Virus record (IMG/VR): IMGVR_UViG_3300027114_000002
Coordinates: 1 to 36,863 of that record
Origin: a virus
Length of the DNA stretch: 36,863 bases
Direction: 5' to 3' (one strand)
Shown: positions 1-32,785 of the stretch, piece after piece
Layout: each line of letters opens with the position of its first letter
How positions within the stretch are numbered: the stretch's first letter is position 1
The notes under the pieces: model-generated
What the model saw: only the letters and a program-made list of their open reading frames with translations
What the model was told of the DNA's origin: nothing
Databases searched by the model: none
Translations under genes and position numbers: made by a program

Positions 1-99
1 AAGGCATCACGGAGAAGGATGCTATCCTAGCGGCAGTACGCGGTTTAGTTAACCGTGAAATAAGTTCGAGCAATGAACTGACTGATGATGAGATCACGC
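1..99. repeat. Left copy of the 99-bp terminal direct overlap (identical to 36765..36863)
   Basis: I compared the two ends base by base and they match exactly. Confidence 0.95.
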
Positions 100-134
100 T
101 TATTATCAAAAACCTGGCGGTTGTCGGTTCATGA
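1..134 (+). CDS. 3' end of the wrap-around annealase-like gene that starts at 36347 (partial in this linearisation)
   Basis: The reading frame from 36347 continues through the 99-bp terminal overlap. It ends at TGA 132..134, which overlaps the ATG at 131 (ATGA). Confidence 0.6.
   Translation, partial: GITEKDAILAAVRGLVNREISSSNELTDDEITLIIKNLAVVGS
113..122 (-). promoter_or_regulatory. Copy F of the exact 10-mer AACCGCCAGG (reverse orientation), 9 nt upstream of the dCMP deaminase ATG
   Basis: The + strand reads CCTGGCGGTT. A second AACCG half-site follows on the minus strand (gAACCGacAACCGCCAGG). Confidence 0.5.
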
Positions 135-556
135 CTCGAATGTCTTGGGACAAATATGGATTGGAGATTGCGAGAGCAGCCTCCTATCGCAGTGAAGATC
201 CATATCTAAAAGTTGGTGCATGTGTTCTACGTGGGGATAGAAGCATAATAAGCATCGGCTACAATGGGGCTGCGCCTGGCGTCGATATTCCTTGGGGAGA
301 TAGAGACGCTAGGCGTGGTTTTGTAATACACGCAGAGGTGAATGCATTGCGGTATTGCACACCAGATCAAACAAAGGGTGGATATTTATATGTGACTCAT
401 CATCCTTGTTCTGAATGCATAAAGGTAATTGCTAGTTACGGAATTGCAAATGTTATGTATTCTGATTTGATAGATGGAGCAGTTTACGATCTATCTTCAA
501 TTGCTGAATTGGCAAAAGCTTTTAATATTTCATTAAAACAGGAGGTAAAACAATGA
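131..556 (+). CDS. Deoxycytidylate (dCMP) deaminase, cytidine/deoxycytidylate deaminase family
   Basis: It has the zinc-binding motifs HAEVNAL and HHPCSECIKVI (HAE...PCxxC). Its 141 aa length fits ComEB/T4 cd-type enzymes. Confidence 0.85.
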   Translation: MTRMSWDKYGLEIARAASYRSEDPYLKVGACVLRGDRSIISIGYNGAAPGVDIPWGDRDARRGFVIHAEVNALRYCTPDQTKGGYLYVTHHPCSECIKVIASYGIANVMYSDLIDGAVYDLSSIAELAKAFNISLKQEVKQ

Positions 557-984
557 GCGCTTTACAAATGATTTTGGATAATCAAAGAAAATTGCAGTTA
601 AAGTCATATGGAGTAGATATTACTACTTTTGATGAAGAACAAAGAGCAGCATATATCCGAGACATGTCTTTGGCATTAACAGATGAGTTGCACGAAGCAT
701 TAAATGAAACCGGTTGGAAACCATGGGCTACAAGTCGGCATATAAACCGATTGGCATTTATTGGTGAAATGATAGATGTACTTCATTTTTGGTGTAATTT
801 AGTTTTAGTTGCAAATGTCAATGAACAAGAGATTTTAGATGTCTATTTTGCTAAAGCCGAAAAGAATGCTAAGCGTCAATTGGTTGGTTACGACGGAGTA
901 GAAGGCAAGTGCAAGACTTGTGGACGAGCATATGATGATGCAGCAGTCCTATGTACTCCAATTGCTTGCGAGCACATAGAATGA
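553..984 (+). CDS. All-alpha NTP pyrophosphohydrolase (dimeric dUTPase/MazG/dCTPase-like) with a C-terminal Cys cluster
   Basis: It has the acidic metal-binding helices DELHEALNE and EMIDVLHF typical of the MazG/dimeric dUTPase superfamily. A GGAGG RBS lies upstream. The C-terminal tail reads CKTCG...C...C. Confidence 0.65.
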   Translation: MSALQMILDNQRKLQLKSYGVDITTFDEEQRAAYIRDMSLALTDELHEALNETGWKPWATSRHINRLAFIGEMIDVLHFWCNLVLVANVNEQEILDVYFAKAEKNAKRQLVGYDGVEGKCKTCGRAYDDAAVLCTPIACEHIE

Positions 985-1979
985 GTTACGTCTTAGATGA
1001 TGTAGTCACCTCGTTTACAGATCGGATTGCAAGTCATAGATCTGCTTGGCCAAGAATGCAGAAATGCATGGTTGATGATGCGCTTAACACTAAATCTGAG
1101 ATTGCTTTTGGCAATGATCAACTTGTTAAAGAAAACACATGGTTAGTATCGACTCCTATGGAATTCAAAGGTGAAGTCTTTAATCTATTTGGTGGTTACA
1201 CAAAAGAGACTAGAGATAGAATTGCTAGAGTTTTAGATATGGATCTTGCCAATATTAAAGCTTTGGACATGCCTATTGGCGATATTGAAAGAATTCTTCG
1301 TCCACGTGCGGCAAAGACTGATTTTGACTTTACAGAATCAGAATGGTCAAAAATTCGTGATCTAATGAAATGCGAAGTTATCAAACACGAAGATCTTGTA
1401 TTAGATATTCAAAGAGTAGTTATCGGTGATTCTCATTCTATTTCAAGGTATAGAGCAAATACTGTTGTCTATCGTCACGATGGTTTAACACTTCACGGTT
1501 TAACGGAAAGAGGAGTCGAACCTTATCTTCCTGATTACTTTGTTCCACATTTAGTTATTTACGCAGGAAATGTAGACATTAGACATCATTTATGTAGACA
1601 GTTGGATCCTGAAGGTTCAGCACGTAGGTTGGTTAGTAATCTTAGAATGCATCTAGAATATATGCAGCAAAAAGGTAAAATAGGAACATTTGAAGTTACT
1701 GCACCCTATCCGATTGAGTTTGAAGAGCGTAAAATTCCAAAAACGGGATTTTACAAAGGTACAGCTTTTTATGGATCTCATCCAGCACGTGACAGAGTTC
1801 GTTCAGTCATGACAAACGAGATGAAATATCAGTTTGACAATGTTCATGAATGGCCAACTAATTGGTACATGATCGATCCAGAAGATTATGCAAAAACATA
1901 CATGGAAAAGCCTGGATCAGTCCATTTATCACCTGAGTTTTATGAATGGGATTTGGTTAACAATGCCGCAAATAACTGA
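981..1979 (+). CDS. Protein with a C-terminal SGNH/GDSL-type hydrolase-like domain
   Basis: The start overlaps the upstream stop (ATGA). Block I is VIGDSHS, block III is AGNVD, and the block V-like segment is VHLSPEFY. The N-terminal ~150 aa have no recognisable motif. Confidence 0.5.
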   Translation: MSYVLDDVVTSFTDRIASHRSAWPRMQKCMVDDALNTKSEIAFGNDQLVKENTWLVSTPMEFKGEVFNLFGGYTKETRDRIARVLDMDLANIKALDMPIGDIERILRPRAAKTDFDFTESEWSKIRDLMKCEVIKHEDLVLDIQRVVIGDSHSISRYRANTVVYRHDGLTLHGLTERGVEPYLPDYFVPHLVIYAGNVDIRHHLCRQLDPEGSARRLVSNLRMHLEYMQQKGKIGTFEVTAPYPIEFEERKIPKTGFYKGTAFYGSHPARDRVRSVMTNEMKYQFDNVHEWPTNWYMIDPEDYAKTYMEKPGSVHLSPEFYEWDLVNNAANN

Positions 1980-3015
1980 AACCATCTACTGGGAAGACTT
2001 TAAGAAGTATTATGACAAAGCTGCCATCTTGCAAACTATAAACATTGCAAGTGACAAAGGCCGTGATACTTCTGAAGATCTACATGTAGATGATCCTTTG
2101 CAACATCACATTACTATTTACGACACAGTAGATCGTGAGTTTGCCGGATTTAGCAATGCTATCCAGCAGATTTGGTATGGATCAAACAATCCAAAAAAAT
2201 GGCAAGTTGATAGTCGTTTTGATGGTTACAACTTGCATGCAATGGATTGGTTTTATCTTTTTATGATTCACAGAGTGACTGGATCAGGTGCTTCGTTTAG
2301 TTATGACCATGGATTTAGAAACAGTATACTTTCAGATATGGCTCTCAAAACTGATAACATGATTCATATGAGAAACTATGTCTTAAGTGAGATGAAAACT
2401 GGTAGACCAATTTTTACAAGTATTGGTAATCAGATTCCACAATTTCCTAAGCCAAATGCAGAGTATCCTCGTGGATCGCAACTTTACATTTCAGAATATA
2501 TGCCTCATTTGGTTAAAGATTTTTATACTCATTTGTCCTATAATCCATTGACGATGTCCATTAGAGATGGGGTTGATTGGATCAATGAATGGCACAAATC
2601 TCAAGGTCTTAAGTGTTTCCATTTTGTAATGACAGCATTTGTAATGGATGTTGCTCAATATTTCCCTACATTGATAGATCCATGGAGTCAAGTAAACTAT
2701 GGAAGCAATGCAATCAAGGCGTTGAATTTATTGTTTAAGAACGAAGGTTACAAGCAAAAAGACTTTTTAGATGCTGCAATGGAGATCATTTGTAATGAGT
2801 TTAGATCTCCTTACGATCCGCGCGACCATGAAAGAAACTTAGGTAAAGGATTAAGTTTAGAAGATGTTGCATGTGATTATGTACGTTACGTTGAATGTTA
2901 CGTACCAAAAGGTTATGAACATTTAGAACCTTGGCAAGTAACAAACAAATCACTGATTCCTCATCATGCAAAGCATTGGACATACCACAAACACTTGGAG
3001 GCTAAAAATGTTTAA
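1963..3015 (+). CDS. Hypothetical ~350 aa protein, a candidate base-modification enzyme by context only
   Basis: It is a long ORF with coding-like composition. The start is uncertain (ATG at 1942 or 1963). I recognise no catalytic motif with certainty, although an HRVTGSGASF segment is notable. Confidence 0.45.
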   Translation: MPQITETIYWEDFKKYYDKAAILQTINIASDKGRDTSEDLHVDDPLQHHITIYDTVDREFAGFSNAIQQIWYGSNNPKKWQVDSRFDGYNLHAMDWFYLFMIHRVTGSGASFSYDHGFRNSILSDMALKTDNMIHMRNYVLSEMKTGRPIFTSIGNQIPQFPKPNAEYPRGSQLYISEYMPHLVKDFYTHLSYNPLTMSIRDGVDWINEWHKSQGLKCFHFVMTAFVMDVAQYFPTLIDPWSQVNYGSNAIKALNLLFKNEGYKQKDFLDAAMEIICNEFRSPYDPRDHERNLGKGLSLEDVACDYVRYVECYVPKGYEHLEPWQVTNKSLIPHHAKHWTYHKHLEAKNV

Positions 3016-3895
3016 GATAACAGAAGACTCTTCGAGTAAGTATTCATACAAGTCACGTGAAGAATGGTTAGATCTTGCAGGCGATTGGGTTGATGAAACT
3101 CAAATGCCAAATATAGGTACATTTCACGGTGCAACAATATGGGACGATTCTGTAACTGGAGTTGGTACAAAAGGTCGTTGGGGAGATCTATTAGTTAAAA
3201 CTATGGAATCAGATCATCTGGTTTATGTACAACCTAGAGTCGGTTGGGCAGGAGTTTCATTAGCTGCTCTTGCAAAGAAATATAACAAAAAGTTAACATT
3301 GTTCATGCCTTCTTCAAAAGTTGTAAGTGACCATCAATTAGTTTGTATTGAAAGAGGGGCAAATCCAATCTTTCGAAGAATTGCAGCAATGCCAGTTCTA
3401 AACAAATATGCAAAAGATTGGGCAGAACAAAATAATGCTCAGTTTGTGCCATTTGGTTTGGATCATCCACTAGTTGTTGCGGCTGGAGTGAAATCAACAA
3501 TTCAACAATGGGGAGCTCGAGATGAACCAAGAGACGTTGTATCAGTTATTAGTACAGGAGTTCTCACGAGAACTCTCCAAATTGCTTGGCCAAATGCAAC
3601 CTTCCACGGAATTGCAGTTGCAAGAAACTTACATGCAGGAGAGATCGGAAGAGCGGACGTTACAACTTACCATAAAGCTTTCAGAGAAAAAGCTGAGTAT
3701 GCAGACAAGATCAATGAAGAGATCAACTCCGCGCCAACCTACGATTGCAAAGGTTTAGAAAGGTTTATGTTGGACAAAACATCTGCTCCTAAAACACCTT
3801 TAACTTTATTGTGGAATGTGGCAGGTGACGTAAAACCAGTTATAATGGACCATTCACAAGTTGATAGTTTCAGAGAATGGGGTGAGTTTAGATGA
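3008..3895 (+). CDS. PLP-dependent enzyme, fold type II (ACC deaminase/D-Cys desulfhydrase/TrpB-like)
   Basis: A GGAGG RBS lies 6 nt before ATG 3008. WDDSVTGVGTKGRWGDLL resembles the K(R/E)DD..GGNKxRK PLP-lysine motif. It is followed by a VYVQPRVGWAGVSLAALAKKYNKKLTLFMP Rossmann-like segment. Confidence 0.55.
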   Translation: MFKITEDSSSKYSYKSREEWLDLAGDWVDETQMPNIGTFHGATIWDDSVTGVGTKGRWGDLLVKTMESDHLVYVQPRVGWAGVSLAALAKKYNKKLTLFMPSSKVVSDHQLVCIERGANPIFRRIAAMPVLNKYAKDWAEQNNAQFVPFGLDHPLVVAAGVKSTIQQWGARDEPRDVVSVISTGVLTRTLQIAWPNATFHGIAVARNLHAGEIGRADVTTYHKAFREKAEYADKINEEINSAPTYDCKGLERFMLDKTSAPKTPLTLLWNVAGDVKPVIMDHSQVDSFREWGEFR

Positions 3896-4335
3896 TTACA
3901 ATCATCGAAGGTTCTGATGGAACAGGCAAAACAACTTATGCTCAAAAATTAACAGAACGATACAATGCACAATATTTGCATGCCGAACAACCAAGATCTA
4001 GATTATGGGTTGATGAATATATTCGACCATTAACTTCTAGTAACATGGTATTAGATCGATGGCATTTAGGTGAATTTGTATGGCCAAAGATTTTTGGAAG
4101 AGTATCATTATTTGATGAAACCACATTTGATTATTGCAATTGGGAACTTGCTAAACTTGGAGCTAGGTTAATCCTTTTAACAAGATCAGAAGATGCAATA
4201 GCTGAAGAATTATTAAGACGTGGCGAAGAAATGCAAATCGATGCAGTATTACATTCAAGATCTTTATTTGTAGAAGCTTTTAGACAAGTGAAATATTTAG
4301 ACAAAACAATAATCCATAGTGAGGTGGTTAGGTAA
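3892..4335 (+). CDS. P-loop nucleotide kinase, thymidylate kinase (Tmk)-like dNMP kinase
   Basis: IIEGSDGTGKTT matches the Tmk P-loop (EGxDGxGKTT). A DRW motif sits at the DRY/DRH position. LILLTRSEDAIAEELLRRGEE aligns with the Tmk lid region. At 147 aa it is short for the family. Confidence 0.7.
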   Translation: MITIIEGSDGTGKTTYAQKLTERYNAQYLHAEQPRSRLWVDEYIRPLTSSNMVLDRWHLGEFVWPKIFGRVSLFDETTFDYCNWELAKLGARLILLTRSEDAIAEELLRRGEEMQIDAVLHSRSLFVEAFRQVKYLDKTIIHSEVVR

Positions 4336-5144
4336 TGCATATAATTACAGAAAATCCAAGCGAAGCTTTAGAGTTAGCAACTCAGTATGTTATTGAACAT
4401 GGTGAAGCCATATCTCCTCGCGGAATGGTTACTAGAGAACTTCTTAATGTAACTTTACAAGTAGAAAAGCCATGGAACATACCTGTATCTATGGAAAACC
4501 GTAAACTAAATCATAATATCGGTATCAAAGAAGCCTTACAACTTGTTGGACAAGTTACGGATCCAGAAGCAATGACAAGTACCAGTCAAGTGTTTGGAAA
4601 GTTTATGGATAATGGAATACTTCATGGTGCTTATGGTCCGCGTATTCACGGTAATCTAAACAAAGTTGTTGAGCAGTTAAAAAAAGATTACTCTACAAGA
4701 CAAGCTGTTTTGACCATCTTTGATTCTAACAAAGATCTAAATGTTGATGTTAAAGATGTTCCTTGTACCTTAAACCTACAGTACTTTATTAGAGACAATA
4801 AGTTAATTGCTCGAACAAATATGAGAAGTAATGACGTATTTCTAGGTCTTCCATATGATTTAACTCAGTTTATTGCTTTACAAGGAGCAATTGCAAAAGC
4901 TTTAGATATTGAAATGGGTCAATACGTTCACGTTGTTGGAAGTATGCACATTTATGATGAACATATACCTCAAGCTCAATGGATTAAAGCATACTTCAAC
5001 GGATCATTCAAAGACTATGAACCAATGTGGACTGGCAATAATATTGGTGAAATCAGTCATACTGCAAGATCTATTCTTAAAGGTAACATTCCTGAACGTT
5101 TAACCCGTTTTGAAAGATTTTTAGCAGGTAAAATCAATGACTGA
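4335..5144 (+). CDS. Thymidylate synthase superfamily enzyme, predicted deoxycytidylate 5-hydroxymethyl- (or methyl-) transferase
   Basis: DVPCTLNLQYF carries the catalytic Cys. MRSNDVFLGLPYD aligns with E. coli ThyA QRSCDVFLGLPFN. GSMHIYDEH aligns with GGDTHLYSNH. Asp replaces the Asn177-equivalent residue. Confidence 0.8.
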   Translation: MHIITENPSEALELATQYVIEHGEAISPRGMVTRELLNVTLQVEKPWNIPVSMENRKLNHNIGIKEALQLVGQVTDPEAMTSTSQVFGKFMDNGILHGAYGPRIHGNLNKVVEQLKKDYSTRQAVLTIFDSNKDLNVDVKDVPCTLNLQYFIRDNKLIARTNMRSNDVFLGLPYDLTQFIALQGAIAKALDIEMGQYVHVVGSMHIYDEHIPQAQWIKAYFNGSFKDYEPMWTGNNIGEISHTARSILKGNIPERLTRFERFLAGKIND

Positions 5145-5271: not shown

Positions 5272-5614
5272 TCAAAGTGAAGTTGTCAAGCGCCTGAGCG
5301 AATTATCGCGTATGCTCGATGCTGCAACTGAAGAAATAGCAGCATTAGATGACCAATCTGTTCGTGCAAAAGGATCTTATGAAGTAGCATATGCAAAATC
5401 CTTTTTAGAATCCAATGGATCAATGGATGTCAGGCGCCAAGAAGCAATTCTTGCTTGCGCTGATCTGCGTCTTGCAATGGAAATTGCAGAAGCTCAAGTC
5501 AGAGCAATAAAAGAAAGAATTAACACATTGAGGTCACAAATATCCATTGGTCAATCATTATCAGCTGCAATTAGACAACAATTTAGTGCTGAAGGCGTAG
5601 GTCAATATACATGA
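5261..5614 (+). CDS. Hypothetical coiled-coil protein
   Basis: The ORF is tightly packed between its neighbours and has a helical, heptad-like composition. Confidence 0.5.
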   Translation: MLPNQSEVVKRLSELSRMLDAATEEIAALDDQSVRAKGSYEVAYAKSFLESNGSMDVRRQEAILACADLRLAMEIAEAQVRAIKERINTLRSQISIGQSLSAAIRQQFSAEGVGQYT

Positions 5615-5877
5615 GATTTAGAAGCAAGAAAATGGCTAAGAAATATGTTGAAAGGCGCAAACTAGTTGCACAAATGCTAGAAACTTATCCCATATGCCAA
5701 AGATGCAATGCAAAGGCGTCCGAAGAAATTCATGAGGTTCTCAGTAGAGCTCGTGGTGGAGATATTTTAGACATTGAGAACTGCAGAGCTTTATGTCATA
5801 TGTGTCACTTCTGGATTACAACAAATCCAGCAGAAGCGCTAAAAACAGGCTGGTTAAAGAATTCCTGGGATAAATGA
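5611..5877 (+). CDS. HNH endonuclease (small)
   Basis: CQRCNA...EEIHEVLSRARGG...NCRALCHMCHFWI shows a CxxC...H...N...CxxCH HNH/zinc pattern. Confidence 0.65.
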   Translation: MRFRSKKMAKKYVERRKLVAQMLETYPICQRCNAKASEEIHEVLSRARGGDILDIENCRALCHMCHFWITTNPAEALKTGWLKNSWDK

Positions 5878-6041: not shown

Positions 6042-6376
6042 CCAACTTATCTAGAAAAAGACGAGGTAGAGAAACAGAATTGATTTTTGCTGAGTATTTG
6101 AAGACACAAGGTTGGACTTATGCTGAAGCGACAAGTTCATCAGCTGCAGGAACCGACATTAAAGGAGTTATCGGAGTTGATTGGGAACTTAAAGCCAGAG
6201 CGGACTTTGATCCTAGATCAGCAATGAAACAACAACAAAAACGCATCAAAGAAGGCGTAATCCCCATCGCTGTTTTAAGGCAGAATGGACAAGGTGAAGC
6301 CGATATTGAGAATTGGCCAGCATGTGTTCCAGTAAGCATTATGATCCAATTACTTAAAGAGGCGGGTTATTTGTGA
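6038..6376 (+). CDS. PD-(D/E)XK nuclease, Holliday-junction-resolvase-like
   Basis: A GGGGAGG RBS lies 7 nt before ATG 6038. GTDIKGVIGVDWELKAR gives a D...ExK motif, preceded by an E in RETELIF. Confidence 0.5.
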   Translation: MTNLSRKRRGRETELIFAEYLKTQGWTYAEATSSSAAGTDIKGVIGVDWELKARADFDPRSAMKQQQKRIKEGVIPIAVLRQNGQGEADIENWPACVPVSIMIQLLKEAGYL

Positions 6377-6651
6377 CAATTAGAGATTTATCATTTGATC
6401 GAGAAGTTGTTCCTTGGATGAAAGAAGGCAATTGTACTGATCCATCAATTGATCCAGATTGGTTTTTCCCAGATAGTGAACACGAAAACAACATAGAACA
6501 AAGAATGGCTTTGGATATGTGCAAAACATGTCCAGTAAAAATGAATTGCTTAGGTTATGCACTCAACAATTGGCCAGTATATGGCATTTGGGGTGGAATG
6601 CGAAATAAACAACTAAAAGATCTAGCGAGACAAATAAAGGAGCAAAAATGA
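6373..6651 (+). CDS. whiB: WhiB-family transcriptional regulator
   Basis: It has the four-Cys pattern NCTD...CKTCPVKMNC (C-x(n)-C-x2-C-x5-C). It also has DPDWFFP and a C-terminal GIWGG turn followed by a basic tail. Confidence 0.9.
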   Translation: MTIRDLSFDREVVPWMKEGNCTDPSIDPDWFFPDSEHENNIEQRMALDMCKTCPVKMNCLGYALNNWPVYGIWGGMRNKQLKDLARQIKEQK

Positions 6652-8162: not shown

Positions 8163-8477
8163 ATGCTAATGAATAAACCATGTTTAGATTGTGGTGTGTT
8201 AGCAAACAAACCTAGATGTCCTATGTGCAATAAGAAGTATCAGAAGTTTAAAGCAACCTCTCGTCCTTCACGTGCAGATAGGGGTTACGATGCAAATTGG
8301 AAAAGGTTATCAAAACAACTAAGACTATTGCAACCTTATTGTTCTATTTGTAAAGCAACCAACGATTTGACTGTGGATCACATAACACCGTTATCGAGTG
8401 GTGGTCTCACAGTTGAATCGAACTTGCAAGTTCTATGTAGACGATGCAACAGCAGCAAAGGTACTTCCTCTTCCTGA
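8163..8477 (+). CDS. HNH endonuclease (packaging-associated type, adjacent to terminase)
   Basis: Motifs are CLDCG...CPMC, then YCSICKATNDLTVDHITPLSSGG...NLQVLCRRCNSSKG. Confidence 0.85.
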   Translation: MLMNKPCLDCGVLANKPRCPMCNKKYQKFKATSRPSRADRGYDANWKRLSKQLRLLQPYCSICKATNDLTVDHITPLSSGGLTVESNLQVLCRRCNSSKGTSSS

Positions 8478-10754: not shown

Positions 10755-11104
10755 TGACAGCTGGAATTTATAACGCAACCATAGATCAAGGCGCAACATG
10801 GAGCGTTACAGTCACATATACAGATTCAACTGGCGCACCAATCAACTTGACTGGTTATACAGCAGCAATGCAGGTTCGCCAACAGTATAATTCTACAGAT
10901 GCAGATCTAACATTAACCAGTCCTAATGGTGGAATTGTTATCACACCTTTGACTGGAGTTATTGTTATTACAATGACAGCTACACAAACAGCTTCTCTTG
11001 AAGAAGGTTTCTATGTGTATGATGTCGAACTTACATCAGGAACTTTTAAAGATCGTATGATGCAAGGGCAATTGACTGTTGCTCCAGAGGTGACGCGTGT
11101 CTGA
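10754..11104 (+). CDS. Small beta-rich (Ig-like) structural protein
   Basis: The composition is Thr/Val-rich with alternating beta-strand patterns. The gene is translationally coupled to its neighbours. Confidence 0.4.
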
Positions 11105-13112
11105 TAATCAAATCACCGTTGTCAAAGATGTCAATACAGTAACTATTGCTGATGCTGGTACTCAAGGTCCTATCGGTCCTACCGGTCCTACCGGTGCAAC
11201 CGGTATTCAAGGACCAACTGGCGCAACAGGTCCTACAGGTTCTCAAGGAATTCAAGGCGTAACAGGTCCTACTGGAGCACAAGGAATCCAAGGACCTACT
11301 GGTCCTACCGGTTCTCAAGGAGTTACAGGTCCAACAGGAGCGCAAGGACCAACCGGTCCTACTGGTCCTCAAGGAATTCAAGGCGTTACCGGACCGACAG
11401 GTCCGCAAGGCATTCAAGGAATTCAAGGACCAACCGGACCAACCGGCGCACAGGGAATTCAGGGTCAAACAGGACCGACCGGACCACAAGGAATTCAGGG
11501 TCCGACAGGACCGACTGGAGCACAAGGAATCCAAGGAGAAACCGGACCTACAGGACCAACAGGTTCTCAGGGAATCCAGGGACCGACTGGTCCAACTGGA
11601 CCGCAGGGAATTCAAGGACCGACTGGACCGACTGGACCGACTGGAGCAGATTCATTTGTAACAGGACCAACGGGATCAACAGGTCCACAAGGAATCCAAG
11701 GTGTTCAAGGTATACAAGGAATTGAAGGACCAACTGGTCCAATAGGACCAACAGGATCTACTGGACCAACAGGAGCAGCTTCAACTGTTACTGGTCCGAC
11801 TGGCGCGACAGGACCAACCGGTCCGCAAGGTGTTTCAGGACCTACAGGACCTACAGGATCTGCTGGCGCAGATGGAGATAGATACAAAACTACATCCACT
11901 ACGTCACTATTAGTTGGCAATGGCACAAAAACTTTAACTACTGTTGATCTTAATTTAGATTATTCAACAGCTCAGAACGTTGTAATTTCATACGACATAA
12001 ATAATGTTATGCGCGGTGGAGTTGTAAGTTATAACGGAACAACTGGAGTTTTAGTTGTAGATGTAATTAAACATGATGGTGCCGGAACATATACATCTTG
12101 GGAAATTAACTTAGATGGATCAGTTGGAATCCAAGGTGCAACAGGTCCGACAGGACCGACAGGTGCAACTGGAACTATTGGTGCAACTGGAGCAACTGGA
12201 GCAACTGGAGCCACAGGTCCTACCGGTTCAACAGGTTTAACAGGTGATACCGGACCTACTGGTCCGACCGGTGCGCAAGGAATTCAAGGTGTCCAAGGAA
12301 TCCAGGGAGTTACAGGACCGACCGGTCCGCAAGGACCAACCGGTCCGACCGGAGCGCAAGGTATTCAAGGAGAAATTGGCGCGACAGGACCGACCGGTCC
12401 GCAAGGAATTGAAGGACCAACTGGTCCAACAGGTCCTCAAGGAGATCAGGGAATTCAAGGTGTTACCGGTCCGACTGGTCCTCAGGGAATTCAGGGTCAA
12501 ACCGGACCTACAGGTCCTCAGGGAGATCAGGGAATCCAGGGACCGACAGGTCCGACAGGTCCGCAAGGCATTCAAGGAGTTACAGGTCCAACAGGTGCCC
12601 AGGGCATTCAAGGCGATATCGGCCCAACAGGTCCAACAGGTGCCCAGGGAATTCAAGGTGTAACTGGTCCAACTGGCCCAACAGGCGCAGTCGGTGCGAC
12701 AGGCCCCGCTGGAACCAACGGCGCCACAGGTCCAACAGGTCCTGCGGGTACAAACGGCGCGACAGGTCCTACAGGTGCGACAGGTGCGGCAGGTGCCGCG
12801 GCTGCTACCACATACTCTTACACAGCCACAGCTGGACAAACGACATTCAGTGGCGCAGATTTGAACACACTCACTCTTGCCTACACTGTTGGTGCTGAGC
12901 AAGTCTACCTCAATGGCGTGCTCCTTGTACGAGGCAGCGATTATACAGCAAGCAACGGCACCAGCGTTGTGCTTGCAAGTGGCGCCGTTGTTAGCGATTC
13001 GCTTTTGGTTGTAGCGTACGGCGCATTTAACGTCGCCAACACCTACACACAAGTACAAGTTGACGCATTACTTCAAAGTTCAGTCGCAGCTGACGTTATG
13101 GACATCTACTAG
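11097..13112 (+). CDS. Collagen-like (Gly-X-Y) repeat fibre protein
   Basis: There are two long uninterrupted G-X-Y tracts (GPTGPQGIQ-type, about aa 22-260 and 345-560). They are separated by a globular insert and followed by a ~110 aa globular C-terminal domain. Confidence 0.85.
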
Positions 13113-16114: not shown

Positions 16115-16266
16115 TGGACAATGTGACTTTGGTTGAGATTGAATCTGTCGGAATCGTTGAGACTCATGTGGTTATCGACCACGGCGATGGTTCCTTCACT
16201 TCAATGCTCAAAACAACTTACGACGAAATGATTGCGCAACAAGAAGTTACAAAACCACTTCTATGA
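16114..16266 (+). CDS. Small hypothetical protein (50 aa)
   Basis: It has TAATG overlap upstream and ATGA overlap downstream. Confidence 0.35.
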   Translation: MDNVTLVEIESVGIVETHVVIDHGDGSFTSMLKTTYDEMIAQQEVTKPLL

Positions 16267-16283
16267 ACAAGGTCGGGGGACCA

Positions 16284-17345
16284 ATGAAAATTGCTGTTTA
16301 TACTATTGCTCTTAACGAACAAGATTTTGTAGAACGTTGGTATAAAAGTGCAAAACAAGCCGACTATCTTTTAATTGCTGATACAGGATCAAAAGATCTT
16401 ACAGTTAAATATGCTCAAAACTTAGGGATAAATGTAATACAAATTGCAGTTAAACCTTGGCGGTTTGATGATGCTAGAAATGCTGCCTTAGCCGCGCTTC
16501 CTATTGACATAGATTACTGCATAGCTTTAGATATGGATGAAGAACTACAAACTGGTTGGCGCCACGAACTTGAATTAGTAAAACCTGAAGTTACAAGACC
16601 AAGATATAAATACACTTGGTCATGGAATCCTGACGGATCTGCTGGTTTAACTTATGGTGGAGACAAGATCCATTCTAGGAAAAATTATAGGTGGAAACAT
16701 CCTGTACATGAAGTTTTAACTTGCACAACTAATGAAGTACAAGCATGGACAAAGTTAGAAATACATCATCATCCAGATGAGGCTAAATCTAGAGGTCAAT
16801 ACTTTAATTTGCTTGCTCAATCTGTTATAGAAGATCCAACAGACGATCGAAACTGTTTCTATAATGCTAGAGAATTGTTTTTTCATAATAAGTGGACAGA
16901 AGCAATTAAAGAGTTCAAACGTCACCTAAGTCTTCCAAAAGCTCAGTGGAAACCAGAACGAGCAGCATCAATGAGATACCTTGCTAAAATGGAAGAATCA
17001 GAAAGAGAATCTTGGTTGTTAAAAGCAATTGCAGAATCTCCTAATAGCCGAGAACCTAGAGTTGATCTTGCTCAGTATTACTATTCAAAAAATCTTTGGT
17101 TAGACTGTTACGCACATGCTCATGCTGCTCTACGAATCACAGAACAACCACTTGAATATCTAGTAGAATCAGATGCTTGGGGATACTTGCCTCATGATCT
17201 TATTGCAATCTCATGCTACAATATGGACAAACTAGAAGAAGCAAAAGAACACGGTGAGAAAGCTGTAGAACTAGCACCATGGATCGACAGACTTAAGCAA
17301 AATGTTATTTACTATAAAAAAGCACTCGTCATGAAAGGCAACTAA
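16284..17345 (+). CDS. Family 2 (GT-A) glycosyltransferase with a C-terminal TPR-like helical domain
   Basis: IAVYTIALNEQDFVERW...LLIADTGSKDLT...FDDARNAAL...ALDMDEEL contains the DxD motif. The C-terminal half is helical-repeat-like. A GGGGGA RBS precedes ATG 16284. Confidence 0.7.
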   Translation: MKIAVYTIALNEQDFVERWYKSAKQADYLLIADTGSKDLTVKYAQNLGINVIQIAVKPWRFDDARNAALAALPIDIDYCIALDMDEELQTGWRHELELVKPEVTRPRYKYTWSWNPDGSAGLTYGGDKIHSRKNYRWKHPVHEVLTCTTNEVQAWTKLEIHHHPDEAKSRGQYFNLLAQSVIEDPTDDRNCFYNARELFFHNKWTEAIKEFKRHLSLPKAQWKPERAASMRYLAKMEESERESWLLKAIAESPNSREPRVDLAQYYYSKNLWLDCYAHAHAALRITEQPLEYLVESDAWGYLPHDLIAISCYNMDKLEEAKEHGEKAVELAPWIDRLKQNVIYYKKALVMKGN

Positions 17346-18791
17346 ATGAGTCTATCAAATAGACTGCGCAAAACAGGAGAGAAACGGAATAATAACCAAT
17401 TCTTGGAACCGTTTTTGCCTGGTCGTGCTTTGTATGCAACTCCAGCTGGAGTGGAAGTAAACTCTGATACTGCAATTAGAATGTCAACTGTTTATGCTTG
17501 CGTACGTCTATTAGGTGACACTATTAGTTCTCTTCCACTATCTGCTTATGTCCGTCGTGGTCGTTCTAGAATAAATTATGCCTCTGTTTATGGAGAATTA
17601 CCTAAGTGGATTAACAATCCAAATCCTGACTCAACTCGTTTAGAGTTTTACGAACAAGTAATTTCATCTTTAAACCTTCATGGTAATGCATTCATTCTAA
17701 CCGTACGTGACGATATGGGCGACGTTCAAGAACTGTACTGCATAAACCCACTCCAAGTTCGTATACGTCGTCCTGATCCTATGGGTGAGATTGAGTACAT
17801 AGTTACAATTGGTCAGAATGCGCAAGATCCTGTAAATCAATTCTATGACAATCTACAACCTTTTGATCCAATGTCAACAAAAACTATGGTCCTGACAAAG
17901 AATGAAATGTTGCACATTCCTATGTTTAGACTACCTGGTCAGTTACTTGGACTTGGTCCCATTGCAGCCGCTCGTGTAACTTTAGGATCAGCTATGGCTG
18001 CAGAAGTTTATGCAGCAAGTTACTTTGGAAACGCAGCAAATCCTGGGGGAGTTATTGAATCACCAGGTGAAATGACTGAAGAACAAGCAGCTGATATTGC
18101 ACGAAACTGGAACATGTCACATACAGGACCTTATCGTGCTGGAAAACTTGGCATTCTAACTAGTGGTGCAACATTCAAGCCACTTACTCTTAATGCTGCA
18201 GATGCACAACTTCTAGAAGTACGTAGATTTGGCGTAGAAGAAATTGCTAGACTATTCCGTGTACCTGTATCTTTGCTTGGTCACCCAGTTGCTGGCGCAA
18301 TGTCATTTGCATCTGTTGAAGCTCAGAACTTGTCATTTGTTCAGCATTCTTTACGTCCTTTGCTTGAAAGACTAGAACAAGCACTTTCACCATTACTTCC
18401 TGAACCAGACGGATTTATTAAGTTTAACCTCGATGCGTTACTACGTGGAACAACACTAGAACGCTATGATGCCTATACAAAAGGTTTGCGTGAAGGCTTT
18501 TTAAGTCTCAATGATGTCCGTTACGTAGAAGATCTTGCACCTCTTGGAGAGTCTGGAGATCAATACCGAGTTCCACTGCAAAATATTGATGCAGCAGACG
18601 CAAAAGATGTTGGCCTAAACCTACGTGCCGACATTGCAGCCAAGTTAATACAAGTAGGTTTTGATCCAAAATCTGTAATTGAAGCTGTTGGTTTACCTGA
18701 TATGAATCATACAGGTTTGCCTTCAAATCAGTTGCAACCAATTTCAACAATTGATCCAACGGATCCCAAAGCGGCATACGAGGTCGAGTAG
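17346..18791 (+). CDS. Portal protein (HK97 family)
   Basis: The MSTVYACVRLLGDTISSLPL signature, the 481 aa size, and the position before the protease and capsid genes all fit a portal protein. Confidence 0.85.
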   Translation: MSLSNRLRKTGEKRNNNQFLEPFLPGRALYATPAGVEVNSDTAIRMSTVYACVRLLGDTISSLPLSAYVRRGRSRINYASVYGELPKWINNPNPDSTRLEFYEQVISSLNLHGNAFILTVRDDMGDVQELYCINPLQVRIRRPDPMGEIEYIVTIGQNAQDPVNQFYDNLQPFDPMSTKTMVLTKNEMLHIPMFRLPGQLLGLGPIAAARVTLGSAMAAEVYAASYFGNAANPGGVIESPGEMTEEQAADIARNWNMSHTGPYRAGKLGILTSGATFKPLTLNAADAQLLEVRRFGVEEIARLFRVPVSLLGHPVAGAMSFASVEAQNLSFVQHSLRPLLERLEQALSPLLPEPDGFIKFNLDALLRGTTLERYDAYTKGLREGFLSLNDVRYVEDLAPLGESGDQYRVPLQNIDAADAKDVGLNLRADIAAKLIQVGFDPKSVIEAVGLPDMNHTGLPSNQLQPISTIDPTDPKAAYEVE

Positions 18792-31782: not shown

Positions 31783-31820
31783 GCCCCTGCCTTTCGGCAG
31801 GGGCCTTTTTCTTTTTGTTT
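31783..31820. terminator. Bidirectional rho-independent terminator between convergent genes
   Basis: The hairpin GCCCCTGCC-tttc-GGCAGGGGC is followed by CTTTTTCTTTTTGTTTT and preceded by an A-rich tract (aaagaacaaaaaagaa). Confidence 0.85.
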
Positions 31821-32785
31821 TAGCGAACCATCTCCAAAACTCGATCTGAGAGAGATGTTCCTTGATTCATCATGAATCGCTCGCCTGCAGCAAAATCATC
31901 TGCTGAACGAGTTGTCCGGGTCCATTGTTCGAACTCTGTGAAAGCATTAACAATTCCCCATGCTGTTCCCTTGATATTTTCTTGTGTAGATCCATTCCAG
32001 ATTCCTAGAAGTGTTCCACGGCGTTCTTCAACATTCTTAACTTGACGATCTGTCATGTTTTCTTCGATTGGCATTACATCTTTGACGATTGTCCAGAAGT
32101 CAGAGTTAGCAACTTTCTTATCAAATAGAGAAGATGAAAGAAGGTTGAATTCTTCATTTGACTTAAGAACCACACCTAGAGTTTGACGAACATCTTCGAT
32201 CTTGACATTCATACGAGCTGAATGACGGAAAGAGATAGAAGAAGCATTAGTCCAACGTGTCATTCCGTTTGTGCAGATCAGACGAAGATACTTGATTTCA
32301 AAGCGAAGTGAATCTGTTCCATCGTGAGTATTTGATGCAACTAAAAATGCTTCTACTGGATCAACATTCTTAAGAGTAAGATCAAGAGTGTTTGGAAGCT
32401 TTGCAGCCATAAAGATCTTCTTGCCACCGCGTAATTCACCAGCTGACTGGTAAATCGCACCGGCTTCGTACATAACAGAGTCCACAATATTGACGATGTC
32501 GTTGTTCTGGACAATTGTGTATGTAGGTGAAGTGATTCCAAGAACAGAAGCTGATCCGTCCTTATTGACACGAGTTGTAGCAACTTTGTCTTCAAGCTGA
32601 ACGACTGTCACGCCGCCATTGTTAATTGCTGTAGTTGAAAGTGGAGTGTGCTGAACTTCCCAATCAAGATTTGCATTCTCAAGAACTTGAACTGCAGAGA
32701 TTTGCTCGTCACTTGAATTTACCCATGTTGCTGTGCTGATCCATGGAGCCTTGCGACGTGCTGCGTTCTGGATTTGTACTGACAT
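31820..32785 (-). CDS. DUF932-like phage/plasmid protein (TIGR03299-like), function unknown
   Basis: APWISTATWV...LENANLDWEV...TTRVNKDGSASVLGITSPTYTIVQNND...LRGGKKIFMAAKL...NTHDGTDSLRFEIKYLRLICTNGM matches the pattern I recall for this family. Confidence 0.7.
   Translation of the reverse strand: MSVQIQNAARRKAPWISTATWVNSSDEQISAVQVLENANLDWEVQHTPLSTTAINNGGVTVVQLEDKVATTRVNKDGSASVLGITSPTYTIVQNNDIVNIVDSVMYEAGAIYQSAGELRGGKKIFMAAKLPNTLDLTLKNVDPVEAFLVASNTHDGTDSLRFEIKYLRLICTNGMTRWTNASSISFRHSARMNVKIEDVRQTLGVVLKSNEEFNLLSSSLFDKKVANSDFWTIVKDVMPIEENMTDRQVKNVEERRGTLLGIWNGSTQENIKGTAWGIVNAFTEFEQWTRTTRSADDFAAGERFMMNQGTSLSDRVLEMVR

What the first reader, a model, noticed from the sequence alone, without database searches (positions are those of the whole stretch)
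4335..5144. TS-family enzyme carries Asp at the Asn177-equivalent specificity position, predicting a cytosine rather than uracil substrate
The segment NMRSNDVFLGLPYDLTQF aligns without gaps to E. coli ThyA YQRSCDVFLGLPFNIASY. The ThyA Asn (N177 in E. coli, N229 in L. casei) hydrogen-bonds O4/N3 of dUMP, and here it is Asp.

In the literature this Asn/Asp switch is the main determinant of dUMP versus dCMP preference. T4 dCMP hydroxymethylase has Asp179, and swapping the residue shifts specificity in both enzymes.

The catalytic Cys (VPC), the RS.D motif and the H.Y motif are all retained, so the enzyme is probably active. It most likely makes 5-hydroxymethyl-dCMP or 5-methyl-dCMP. Sequence alone cannot tell hydroxymethylase from methylase.
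Basis: partly seen in the sequence, partly recalled or inferred. Interest (0 to 1): 0.7.

Follow-up and report, generated by a model that had tools for sequence, protein, structure and literature searches.

The report
Phage dCMP hydroxymethylase in hypermodification operon
The gene is almost certainly a phage enzyme that turns dCMP into 5-hydroxymethyl-dCMP, as in phage T4, and it sits in one operon with three uncharacterised enzymes that probably decorate the resulting modified cytosine in DNA.

Summary
ORF 4335-5144 (269 aa) is a thymidylate-synthase-superfamily protein. Its Asp175 (codon GAT, 4857-4859) aligns without gaps to E. coli Asn177, T4 gp42 Asp179 and MilA Asp186.

- **Signature:** the enzyme has the full T4 gp42 signature (D143, C146, T147, M165, D169, D177 in E. 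coli numbering), invariant in 117 homologs.
- **dUMP hydroxymethylases** (M6, ViI-like, SPO1-like) have N147, N165 and N177.
- **The Xp12 dCMP methylase** has N143, P147 and L165.
- **5-hydroxy-dCMP synthases** have N169.

The gene is the last of seven translationally coupled genes: dCMP deaminase, gp56-like dCTPase, SGNH-like protein, aGPT-Pplase/amino-acid:DNA-transferase-like protein, M6-gp52-like PLP enzyme, TMPK-like kinase and the hydroxymethylase.

The three middle genes form a conserved viral module. In IMG/VR loci it lies beside a D-type hydroxymethylase in 63 of 63 cases. It was absent from all 81 loci around dUMP-type hydroxymethylases.

The enzyme itself is a new member of a known kind. 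The module suggests an undescribed hypermodification built on 5-hydroxymethylcytosine.

The parts
131..556 (+). dCMP deaminase, first gene of the operon
   Evidence: It matches Pfam PF00383 at E=1.5e-19. Its end overlaps the next gene by ATGA. A homolog lies next to D-type TS genes in L006 and L007 and in 51 of 80 IMG/VR loci.
553..984 (+). gp56-like all-alpha NTP pyrophosphatase, a probable dCTPase/dUTPase that supplies dCMP
   Evidence: It matches Pfam PF08761 dUTPase_2 at E=3.2e-12. BLASTP to T4 gp56 dCTPase gives E=1e-11 over residues 2-113 of its 143, and T4 gp56 itself hits PF08761.
981..1979 (+). SGNH/GDSL-hydrolase-like protein with an extra N-terminal domain of about 140 aa. The ORF opens at 951, but most homologs start at the ATG at 981.
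   Evidence: - AlphaFold2 model pLDDT is 90.
- Foldseek against the PDB finds SGNH esterases and acetyl-esterases.
- 10 of 30 family members hit PF00657.
- G159-D160-S161-H162, G206-N207-x-D209 and H325 are invariant.
- It hits phrog_13881 and phrog_17781.
- In 8 protein clusters it is fused to the next gene's family.
1942..3015 (+). aGPT-Pplase / amino-acid:DNA-transferase-like helical protein, from a family with no Pfam model
   Evidence: - AlphaFold2 model pLDDT is 93.7.
- Foldseek against BFVD hits 'Amino acid:DNA transferase domain' proteins (TM 0.79), the SP10 5-hmdU DNA kinase, Pplase1 and the PhiW-14 HMUDK helical domain.
- E307, D308, C311 and D312 are invariant, along with the HRVTGSGASF motif.
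- hhalign gives a weak match to the Montesquieu clade-1 aGPT-Pplase over the Cys motif.
- The family has 164 representative clusters.
3008..3895 (+). Fold-type-II PLP enzyme, a profile-level homolog of M6 gp52. The ORF opens at 2966, but homologs start at 3008.
   Evidence: It hits phrog_7093 at E=1.2e-27. M6 gp52, the PLP-dependent decarboxylase of the 5-NedU pathway, is the core member of that phrog at E=2e-159 (PMC8989533). It has a weak Pfam PALP match. G67-x-K69-x-R71 and S196-T197-G198 are invariant.
3892..4335 (+). Small TMPK-like P-loop kinase, a probable 5hm-dCMP (dNMP) kinase
   Evidence: - It has weak matches to Thymidylate_kin and AAA_33, TIGR00041 and phrog_761.
- It carries GSDGTGKT and DRW motifs.
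- Homologs occur in the modules of L006 and L007, which lack the three middle genes (E=3e-31 and 3e-14).
- It is homologous to the N-terminus of the kinase beside the D-type TS of phage DSL-LC01.
- Only the P-loop resembles the M6 gp54 DNA kinase.
4335..5144 (+). TS-superfamily enzyme, predicted dCMP hydroxymethylase (5hm-dCMP synthase). This is the finding.
   Evidence: It overlaps the kinase gene by one base, TAATG.
4857..4859 (+). Codon GAT for Asp175, equivalent to E. coli Asn177, T4 gp42 Asp179 and MilA Asp186
4755..4769 (+). Codons for D141-V-P-C144-T145, equivalent to E. coli L143, C146 and H147. These carry the hydroxymethylase marker Asp, the catalytic Cys and the gp42-type Thr.
   Evidence: PMC13326640 covers position 143, and PMC8670742 covers position 147.

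Best explanation
ORF 4335-5144 encodes a deoxycytidylate hydroxymethylase of the T4 gp42 type.

**Proposed pathway.** All steps are inferred from homology; none was measured.
1. The gp56-like pyrophosphatase (553-984) hydrolyses dCTP to dCMP.
2. The TS-like enzyme attacks C6 of dCMP with Cys144 and takes the methylene from 5,10-methylene-THF.
3. Water, rather than hydride, then adds to the exocyclic methylene, because Asp replaces Leu143. The product is 5-hydroxymethyl-dCMP.
4. Asp175 reads the N3/N4 face of cytosine.
5. The adjacent TMPK-like kinase (3892-4335) makes the diphosphate. Host enzymes make the triphosphate.
6. A host polymerase, or an unrecognised phage one, places 5hmC in the phage DNA. 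tblastn with two PolA, one PolB and one Prim-Pol protein found nothing in this complete 36.8 kb genome.
7. The dCMP deaminase plays the role of T4 cd: it drains dCMP and feeds dTMP synthesis.

**Second layer (less certain).** Three co-translated genes lie between the pyrophosphatase and the kinase: an SGNH-like protein, an aGPT-Pplase/AADT-like protein and an M6-gp52-like PLP enzyme. They probably convert 5hmC in DNA into a further-modified cytosine. This would parallel the amino-acid-derived thymidine hypermodifications of M6 and ViI, but built on cytosine.
For: **The enzyme**
- Pfam TS match at E=2e-22. The best solved relative is MilA CMP 5-hydroxymethylase at E=4e-21.
- The signature D143/C146/T147/M165/R166/S167/D169/D177/H207/Y209 is identical to T4 gp42 and invariant in 117 homologs.
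- Contrast enzymes differ as expected. dUMP hydroxymethylases of M6, May, Goe26 and Montesquieu have N147 and N177. The Xp12 methylase has N143, P147 and L165 and sits beside a DHFR gene. The 5hodCMP marker D169N is absent.
- The deoxyribose markers R126 and S167 are present.
- The window has no DHFR-like ORF.

**The nucleotide module**
- The gp56 homology is E=1e-11.
- The four-gene core (deaminase, dUTPase_2, kinase, TS) recurs without the three extra genes in L006 and L007.
- The operon's genes are joined by overlapping stop and start codons.

**The three-gene module**
- All three genes are present in 71 of 80 IMG/VR loci, with AADT-like identity to the window protein from 33 to 98% and varied gene order.
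- All 63 classifiable neighbouring TS genes are D-type, including ones with near-gp42 motifs. A further 3 of 3 in MAG contigs are also D-type.
- None of 81 loci around N-type hydroxymethylases carries the module.
- In the T4-like contig L088 the module sits between gene 42 and uvsX, where T4 has beta-glucosyltransferase.
- Eight protein clusters fuse the SGNH-like and AADT-like proteins.
- The AADT-like fold was assigned, and the PLP enzyme belongs to the M6 gp52 family, phrog_7093.
Against: - No enzymology or DNA chemistry was possible. Residue 177 is a major determinant of pyrimidine preference, not an absolute one.
- The operon's dCMP deaminase could in principle deaminate 5hm-dCMP to 5hm-dUMP. 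The final base would then be a thymine analogue.
- The AADT-like protein matches no aGPT-Pplase Pfam model and no solved structure.
- No 5-HMUDK-type DNA kinase with a helical domain was found, so the activation step for the second layer is unknown.
- The loci in the association counts are not phylogenetically independent.
- The absence of a polymerase gene was checked only by tblastn with a few polymerases.
Confidence: 0.8

Rival explanations
1. The operon makes a thymidine hypermodification after all. Either the TS-like enzyme acts on dUMP despite the Asp, or 5hm-dCMP is deaminated by the operon's dCMP deaminase to 5hm-dUMP. That nucleotide would be incorporated in place of T and then modified by the AADT-like and PLP enzymes, as in M6 and ViI.
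For: - The gene content resembles published T-hypermodification clusters: deaminase, dUTPase-family protein, kinase, aGPT-Pplase-like protein and gp52-like PLP enzyme.
- The deaminase is tightly linked to D-type TS genes, in 51 of 80 loci against 3 of 81 loci around N-type genes. That could mean functional coupling.
Against: - Every validated or presumed dUMP hydroxymethylase examined keeps N147 and N177. The window enzyme has the gp42 signature.
- The three-gene module is never found next to N-type enzymes (0 of 81).
- It also occurs in T4-like contigs with gp42-like, gp56/MazG-like and cd-like genes, and in the beta-gt slot.
- The pyrophosphatase is a homolog of the T4 dCTPase.
- T4 itself encodes gp42 and cd without making 5hmU. 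This point rests on established knowledge, not on a tool result.
Confidence: 0.1
2. The enzyme is a dCMP methylase of the Xp12 type, and the phage DNA carries 5-methylcytosine.
For: Asp at position 177 is shared with the Xp12 enzyme. N229D and N177D mutants of TS methylate dCMP (literature cited).
Against: - The Xp12 enzyme has N143, P147 and L165 and is flanked by DHFR.
- The window enzyme has D143, T147 and M165, like all hydroxymethylases examined, and the genome has no DHFR-like ORF.
- An acidic residue at position 143 is the published hydroxymethylase marker (PMC13326640).
Confidence: 0.05
3. The enzyme is a 5-hydroxy-dCMP synthase of the RB69/DLP3 type.
For: It shares D177 and an acidic residue at position 143 with those enzymes.
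Against: The diagnostic D169N substitution reported for all tested 5hodCMP synthases is absent. RSND is retained, and D169 is invariant in 117 homologs. No arabinosyl or glycosyl pathway lies next to the gene.
Confidence: 0.03
4. The gene is an ordinary thymidylate synthase (ThyA) supplying dTMP.
For: It is a member of PF00303, and public sources name its homologs 'thymidylate synthase'.
Against: - Its scores of 64-70 bits are far below the NCBIfam ThyA equivalog cut-offs of 108-427 bits.
- L143, H147, Q165 and N177 are all replaced.
- The ThyA C-terminal region does not match any TS profile or solved structure beyond about residue 215-223.
Confidence: 0.01

Closest known systems
Bacteriophage T4 gp42 deoxycytidylate hydroxymethylase, together with the T4 hmC nucleotide pathway (gp56 dCTPase, gp1 dNMP kinase, cd dCMP deaminase)
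   Same: - The active-site signature is the same: D143, C146, T147, M165, RSND, D177, H207, Y209.
- It is accompanied by a gp56 homolog, a dNMP-type kinase and a dCMP deaminase.
   Different: - Overall identity is only about 21%.
- The enzyme sits in a 36.8 kb WhiB-encoding siphovirus-like genome in which tblastn with PolA, PolB and Prim-Pol queries found no polymerase.
- All the genes form one operon.
- The kinase is a small TMPK-like protein, not shown to be related to gp1.
- The module occupies the beta-glucosyltransferase slot of a T4-like contig, and tblastn with T4 beta-gt found nothing in the window.
MilA CMP 5-hydroxymethylase (Streptomyces, mildiomycin pathway; PDB 5b6d)
   Same: It is the best solved-structure match (E=4e-21). 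Its Asp186 and its Asp at position 143 are conserved in the window enzyme.
   Different: MilA prefers the ribonucleotide through Lys133' and Ala176. The window enzyme has Arg and Ser at those positions, like the deoxyribose enzymes.
Thymidine hypermodification systems of phages M6, ViI, PaMx11, SP10 and PhiW-14 (dUMP hydroxymethylase, 5-HMUDK, aGPT-Pplase/AADT, PLP enzyme)
   Same: - The PLP enzyme belongs to the same PHROG as M6 gp52.
- The helical protein falls in the aGPT-Pplase/HMUDK-helical fold group and has a conserved Cys next to acidic residues.
- The modification genes cluster beside a pyrimidine hydroxymethylase.
   Different: - The hydroxymethylase is the cytosine type rather than the uracil type.
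- The helical protein matches no aGPT-Pplase Pfam model.
- No 5-HMUDK was recognised.
- An SGNH-like protein, often fused to the helical protein, is an obligatory partner. The pathway paper read here (PMC8989533) lists no such protein among those systems' enzymes.
Xanthomonas phage Xp12 dCMP methylase
   Same: It is a TS-superfamily enzyme with Asp at position 177 and a neighbouring dCMP deaminase.
   Different: Xp12 has N143, P147 and L165 and an adjacent DHFR gene. The window enzyme has D143, T147 and M165 and no DHFR.
Metagenomic dCMP hydroxymethylase plus carbamoyltransferase pairs (5-carbamoyloxymethylcytosine; MetaGPA study, PMC8670742)
   Same: Both are uncultured phage TS homologs with Asp177 and an altered residue 147, paired with enzymes that derivatise 5hmC.
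   Different: The partner enzymes here are the SGNH-like, AADT-like and PLP proteins, not a carbamoyltransferase.

Membership tests
Thymidylate synthase superfamily (PF00303) | Significant match to the family profile, with the catalytic Cys, the R166/S167 phosphate binders and the H207/Y209 sugar binders | tested here: met
   E=2.2e-22, 79.9 bits against a cut-off of 24.3. All these residues are present and invariant in the homologs.
Canonical ThyA (dUMP to dTMP) | Score above the NCBIfam equivalog cut-offs; L143, H147 and N177 | tested here: not met
   64-70 bits against cut-offs of 108-427. The three residues are D143, T147 and D177.
dCMP hydroxymethylase (T4 gp42 type) | Asp at the position of E. 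coli N177 (T4 D179) | tested here: met
   Asp175 aligns without gaps to T4 gp42, MilA and E. coli ThyA.
dCMP hydroxymethylase (T4 gp42 type) | Acidic residue at position 143, which admits water to the methylene intermediate | tested here: met
   D141 in KDVPC. The same Asp occurs in T4, M6, May and Goe26. E. coli has Leu and Xp12 has Asn. The rule comes from PMC13326640.
dCMP hydroxymethylase (T4 gp42 type) | Co-varying T147 and M165, seen in gp42 and not in dUMP hydroxymethylases or the Xp12 enzyme | tested here: met
   Position 147 was also flagged by the MetaGPA study.
dCMP hydroxymethylase (T4 gp42 type) | Deoxyribonucleotide determinants: Arg126' and Ser167 | tested here: met
   R and S are present. 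MilA has K and A at these positions.
dCMP hydroxymethylase (T4 gp42 type) | Catalysis of dCMP + CH2-THF + H2O to 5hm-dCMP + THF | not testable with these tools
   This needs an enzyme assay or in vivo nucleoside LC-MS.
dCMP hydroxymethylase (T4 gp42 type) | Companion dCTPase and dNMP kinase genes | tested here: met
   A gp56 homolog at E=1e-11. A TMPK-like kinase lies adjacent and is conserved with the TS gene in L006 and L007.
dUMP hydroxymethylase (SPO1 gp29 / ViI / M6 gp58 type) | Asn at position 177, with N147 | tested here: not met
   The window has D177 and T147. M6, May, Goe26, Montesquieu and 81 IMG/VR relatives have N and N.
dCMP methylase (Xp12 type) | Asp177 with a non-acidic residue at 143, and dependence on DHFR | tested here: not met
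   D177 is shared, but position 143 is Asp, against Asn in Xp12. Residues 147 and 165 also differ. The window has no DHFR.
5-hydroxy-dCMP synthase (RB69 gp48 / DLP3 gp80 type) | The D169N substitution | tested here: not met
   D169 is retained and invariant. The criterion comes from PMC13326640.
CMP hydroxymethylase (MilA / BcmA) | Lys133' and Ala176, which give ribose preference | tested here: not met
   The window has Arg and Ser.
Thymidine-hypermodification cluster (Lee et al. 2018 and 2021) | A 5-hmdU DNA kinase: P-loop plus the HMUDK helical domain | tested here: not met
   The window proteins have no HMUDK_hel match. tblastn with M6 gp54 finds nothing. The small kinase shares only the P-loop with M6 gp54 and belongs to the nucleotide core module.
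Thymidine-hypermodification cluster (Lee et al. 2018 and 2021) | An aGPT-Pplase / amino-acid:DNA transferase with a catalytic Cys and a neighbouring Glu | tested here: inconclusive
   - Fold-level relation to AADT, Pplase1 and HMUDK-helical proteins.
- Invariant E307, D308, C311 and D312.
- A weak hhalign match to a clade-1 member over the Cys motif, pairwise E=0.005, probability 7%.
- No Pfam match in 41 members, and no PDB fold match.
Thymidine-hypermodification cluster (Lee et al. 2018 and 2021) | A PLP enzyme of the M6 gp52 family | tested here: met
   phrog_7093 at E=1.2e-27 for the window protein and 2e-159 for M6 gp52. A Lys motif is conserved. Pairwise BLAST is not significant.
Thymidine-hypermodification cluster (Lee et al. 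2018 and 2021) | A dUMP hydroxymethylase as the source of the 5-hydroxymethyl base | tested here: not met
   The associated hydroxymethylase is D-type in 63 of 63 IMG/VR loci and 3 of 3 MAG loci.

The most novel reading that the evidence does not exclude
These phages, which range from freshwater actinophage-like genomes to T4-like marine and aquatic myoviruses, may carry a so far undescribed hypermodified cytosine.

On this reading, 5hmC is incorporated through the gp42-type pathway. It is then derivatised on the DNA by a dedicated three-protein module: an SGNH-like protein, an aGPT-Pplase/AADT-like protein and a gp52-like PLP enzyme. The chemistry would resemble the amino-acid:DNA transfer known only for thymidine. 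Because no 5-HMUDK is present, the 5-hydroxymethyl group might be activated in a different way, possibly by the SGNH-like protein.
Probability: 0.45. Interest if true: 0.85.

Novelty: new variant of a known kind. Interest (0 to 1): 0.6.

Why it matters
The enzyme on its own is another dCMP hydroxymethylase, useful mainly as a well-supported annotation. It shows that four or five active-site positions can separate ThyA, dUMP hydroxymethylase, dCMP hydroxymethylase, dCMP methylase and 5-hydroxy-dCMP synthase.

The wider point is the operon. All amino-acid-type DNA hypermodifications reconstituted so far are built on 5-hydroxymethyluracil. Here a related enzyme set is tied exclusively to the cytosine-type hydroxymethylase, in many unrelated uncultured phages.

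If it makes a new cytosine derivative, several things would follow:
- It would add a new class of natural DNA base.
- It would add new DNA-modifying enzymes, including an SGNH-fold partner.
- It would probably explain resistance of these abundant aquatic phages to restriction and CRISPR systems.
- It would affect how their DNA behaves in sequencing and in cytosine-conversion assays.

The seven genes are compact enough to be synthesised and tested directly.

Tried and rejected
- **Canonical ThyA:** rejected on NCBIfam scores and active-site residues.
- **Thymidine-hypermodification reading from context alone:** considered first, because the operon has a deaminase, a dUTPase-family protein, a kinase and a PLP enzyme. 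It was downgraded after the signature comparison and the 63/63 against 0/81 association.
- **AADT-like protein by sequence:** no Pfam, PHROG or NCBIfam hit. tblastn against 50,697 phage records gave nothing with three different family members. Foldseek against the PDB gave nothing significant. Only BFVD fold matches and a weak hhalign hit to a clade-1 aGPT-Pplase were informative. hhalign to a clade-2 member was negative.
- **Aeromonas 44RR ORF233c:** I tested whether the C-terminal half of this 795-aa protein is AADT-like. There is a weak Pfam HMUDK_hel hit at E=0.0036, but hhalign and hmmsearch were negative, so I make no claim.
- **The two genes upstream of the SGNH-like gene in Aeromonas phage 25:** they are not AADT-like or PLP-like. 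One is a UDP-galactopyranose mutase.
- **Window PLP enzyme against M6 gp52:** pairwise BLAST is not significant. The link is at profile level only.
- **The kinase as a 5-HMUDK-type DNA kinase:** only the P-loop resembles M6 gp54.
- **A single-protein locus search with the Montesquieu hydroxymethylase:** it found one locus, so I replaced it with an alignment-based search.
- **Literature:** searches for a described amino-acid-type 5hmC hypermodification found nothing. One search failed on syntax.
- **Not attempted:** The Asp position therefore rests on gapless sequence alignment to solved structures.
Full report
**1. The observation**

- It matches Pfam Thymidylat_synt (PF00303) at E=2.2e-22.
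- It scores only 64-70 bits against the NCBIfam ThyA equivalog models, whose cut-offs are 108-427 bits. It is therefore a divergent member of the superfamily, not a ThyA.
- Its best solved relative is not a thymidylate synthase. It is MilA, the CMP 5-hydroxymethylase of Streptomyces (5b6d, E=4e-21).
- The motif NMRSNDVFLGLPYD aligns without gaps to E. coli YQRSCDVFLGLPFN, T4 gp42 NMRSNDVVFGFRND and MilA MRANDAFRGAVSD.
- The residue at the Asn177 position is Asp175, codon GAT at 4857-4859.
- The catalytic Cys (Cys144), R166/S167/D169 and H207/Y209 are all present.
- In 117 full-length homologs from metagenomes (40-97% identity) these residues, including the Asp, are invariant.

**2. What the active site says**

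I compared the enzyme with reference enzymes taken from annotated phage genomes.

| Enzyme | Role | Residues (E. coli numbering) |
|---|---|---|
| Window enzyme | this finding | D143, T147, M165, D169, D177 |
| T4 gp42 | dCMP hydroxymethylase | D143, T147, M165, D169, D177 |
| M6 gp58, ViI-like Klebsiella phage May, SPO1-like Goe26, actinophage Montesquieu | dUMP hydroxymethylases | D143, N147, N or I at 165, N177 |
| Xp12 TS homolog | dCMP methylase (by literature); flanked by DHFR and dCMP deaminase | N143, P147, L165, D177 |
| E. coli ThyA | thymidylate synthase | L143, H147, Q165, N177 |

These positions agree with published rules.
- Position 177 sets uracil against cytosine (PMC8670742; PMC5175136).
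- Position 147 was the second most discriminating position in the MetaGPA study.
- An acidic residue at 143 marks hydroxymethylases (PMC13326640).
- D169N marks 5-hydroxy-dCMP synthases (PMC13326640). The window enzyme keeps D169.
- R126 and S167 are the deoxyribose markers that MilA lacks. The window enzyme has both.

It points to dCMP as substrate and hydroxymethyl as product. It argues against the methylase, the 5-hydroxylase, the ribonucleotide enzyme and the dUMP enzyme.

**3. The operon**

The gene is the last of seven + strand genes joined by ATGA, TAATG or 8-nt overlaps.
- **131-556, dCMP deaminase:** PF00383 at E=1.5e-19.
- **553-984, NTP pyrophosphatase:** PF08761. It aligns with T4 gp56 dCTPase over residues 2-113 of its 143 at E=1e-11, and gp56 is itself a PF08761 member.
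- **981-1979, SGNH-like protein.**
- **1942-3015, helical protein.**
- **3008-3895, PLP-fold protein.**
- **3892-4335, small TMPK-like kinase**.
- **4335-5144, the hydroxymethylase.**

Distant relatives of the hydroxymethylase (53% and 42% identity) sit in a four-gene core: deaminase, pyrophosphatase, kinase, hydroxymethylase. That core lacks the three middle genes, and its kinase is homologous to the window's.

The core is the T4 scheme for making 5hm-dCTP (gp56, gp42, a dNMP kinase, cd), compressed into one operon.

The contig has a 99-bp exact terminal repeat, so it is a complete genome of about 36.8 kb. tblastn with PolA, PolB, Prim-Pol, T4 beta-gt, DHFR and M6 gp51, gp53 and gp54 found nothing.

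**4. The three middle genes**

*The 357-aa helical protein*
- It has no Pfam, PHROG or NCBIfam match, alone or across 41 homologs.
- It has no tblastn match in 50,697 phage records.
- A confident AlphaFold2 model (pLDDT 93.7) matches BFVD models named 'Amino acid:DNA transferase domain-containing protein' (TM 0.79). It also matches the SP10 5-hmdU DNA kinase, a clade-1 aGPT-Pplase and the PhiW-14 HMUDK helical domain, more distantly (TM 0.45-0.49) but with Foldseek probability at or near 1.
- The family keeps an invariant E-D-x-x-C-D motif. This recalls the catalytic Cys and neighbouring Glu of clade-2 aGPT-Pplases (PMC8989533). hhalign aligns it weakly to the corresponding motif of a clade-1 member.

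*The 295-309-aa PLP-fold protein*
- It hits phrog_7093 at E=1e-27.
- The core member of that family is M6 gp52, at E=2e-159. M6 gp52 is the PLP-dependent decarboxylase that acts on DNA in the 5-NedU pathway.
- A G-x-K-x-R lysine motif and an S-T-G loop are invariant.

*The 332-342-aa SGNH-like protein*
- It has an SGNH/GDSL hydrolase fold with an extra N-terminal domain.

**5. The module is tied to the cytosine-type enzyme**

*Test set.* An IMG/VR scan with the helical-protein alignment returned 80 loci.
- 71 carry all three genes, and most of the rest are cut by contig ends.
- Identity to the window protein runs from 98% down to 33%. Gene order varies, and the parent contigs range from about 4 to 167 kb.
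- 63 loci hold a TS-like ORF of at least 200 aa. All 63 have D143, T147, M165, D169 and D177, including enzymes only 20-30% identical to the window's, with motifs nearly identical to T4 gp42.
- Three further loci in MAG contigs give the same result.

*Control set.* 81 IMG/VR loci were collected around N147/N177-type hydroxymethylases.
- None has a member of any of the three families within 10 kb.
- Only 3 have a homolog of the window's deaminase.

*Other support.*
- In the T4-like contig L088 the order is PolB, MazG-like pyrophosphatase, gp42-like gene, the helical, PLP and SGNH genes, UvsX, gp41-like helicase, dCMP deaminase. The module therefore occupies the position that beta-glucosyltransferase holds in T4, between gene 42 and uvsX.
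- A full-library profile search found 164 representative clusters of the helical family. In eight of them it is fused to the SGNH-like protein in one polypeptide.

*Caveat.* The loci are not phylogenetically independent, so the counts are not a formal test. The pattern does hold across very different phage lineages.

**6. Interpretation**

- **Shown:** homology, the residue signatures, gene linkage and the fusions.
- **Inferred with good support:** the enzyme makes 5hm-dCMP, and the phage replaces some or all C with 5hmC.
- **Inferred with moderate support:** the three-gene module further modifies 5hmC on DNA, by chemistry related to amino-acid:DNA transfer followed by a PLP-dependent step.

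No 5-HMUDK-type DNA kinase was found. How the hydroxymethyl group would be activated is therefore open. Candidates are the SGNH-like protein, or direct Cys-assisted dehydration, but neither is supported by data here.

The main rival is that the deaminase converts 5hm-dCMP to 5hm-dUMP, so that the product is a thymine analogue. It cannot be excluded, but two things count against it: the exclusive link to gp42-type enzymes in T4-like contexts, and the gp56-type dCTPase.

**7. Comparison with the literature**

Full-text searches found no described amino-acid-type or AADT-type derivative of 5hmC.

The known 5hmC or C5-O derivatives in the papers read are:
- glucosylation (T4);
- carbamoylation (PMC8670742);
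- TET-route glycans;
- 5-hydroxycytosine arabinosides (PMC13326640).

The library does not cover most subscription journals, so prior description elsewhere is possible.

**8. Verdict**

This is a dCMP hydroxymethylase, a new member of a known kind. The surrounding module is the more interesting result: a probable cytosine counterpart of thymidine hypermodification, and a new variant of a known kind if it is real.

Noticed in passing
window 1-99 and 36765-36863: A 99-bp exact direct terminal repeat. The contig is a complete, circularly assembled genome of about 36.76 kb.
   Followed up: partly
window 11097-13112 (+): A 671-aa protein with nine collagen triple-helix repeat matches (PF01391, E=1.7e-69). 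It accounts for the local GC rise to 0.52 and is probably a tail fibre or other virion surface protein.
   Followed up: no
window 16263-17345 (+): A 360-aa protein with a weak family-2 glycosyltransferase match (E=6e-5), just upstream of the portal gene (17346-18791). Its target is unknown; the collagen-like protein and DNA are both possible.
   Followed up: no
window 6373-6651 (+): A WhiB-family regulator (PF02467, E=1.7e-15) in a genome of about 40% GC. This suggests a low-GC actinobacterial host, but the host was not determined.
   Followed up: no
window 5611-5877 and 8163-8477 (+): Two HNH endonuclease genes. One lies just downstream of the modification operon and the other just before the small terminase subunit.
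   Followed up: no
window 31820-32785 (-): The only large minus-strand gene, encoding a DUF932 protein (E=8.5e-42).
   Followed up: no
L014-L093 against L095-L175: A homolog of the window's dCMP deaminase is near the cytosine-type hydroxymethylase in 51 of 80 loci, but near the uracil-type enzyme in only 3 of 81. That is the reverse of what a simple 'deaminase supplies dUMP' role would predict. Detection used a single-sequence phmmer search, so divergent deaminases may have been missed.
   Followed up: partly
L183 2767-6038 (Aeromonas phage 25); L001 4468-8448 and L094 1292-1987 (phage 44RR2.8t): - Among cultured phages, the SGNH-like protein occurs only in T4-like Aeromonas phages (and Stenotrophomonas phage IME13).
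- Phage 44RR2.8t has a D-type gene 42, and the 22-kb stretch around it shows no a-gt or b-gt gene.
- In phage 25 the protein follows a UDP-galactopyranose mutase (GLF, E=5e-54) and a 358-aa unknown protein.
- In 44RR it is the N-terminus of a 795-aa protein next to a Na+/solute symporter.
- These phages may carry an uncharacterised 5hmC modification.
   Followed up: partly
L010 2277-4715 (Erythrobacter phage ZS04); L009 (phage R6L): 812-aa proteins fuse an N6/N4 DNA methylase domain to a PLP-fold domain related to the window's PLP enzyme. This independently hints that this PLP family acts on DNA.
   Followed up: partly
P0361, P0365, P0387, P0392, P0412, P0421, P0428, P0481: Single polypeptides of 560-790 aa that fuse the SGNH-like and AADT-like families.
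   Followed up: yes
L002 5958-8292 (actinophage DSL-LC01); L011 4989-8042 (Gordonia phage Phendrix); L013 4576-7652 (Manatee Spring phage): These phage genomes (two cultured, L013 from a metagenome) annotate a D143/T147/M165/D177 enzyme as 'thymidylate synthase' or 'pyrimidine hmase'. It lies beside a kinase or NTP-PPase and a dCMP deaminase. They probably also make 5hmC, and the two cultured ones could be tested directly.
   Followed up: partly
L023 11067-16638: The operon breaks off inside the PLP gene and reappears inverted (TS, kinase and PLP on the minus strand) at the contig end. This is probably an assembly artefact.
   Followed up: no
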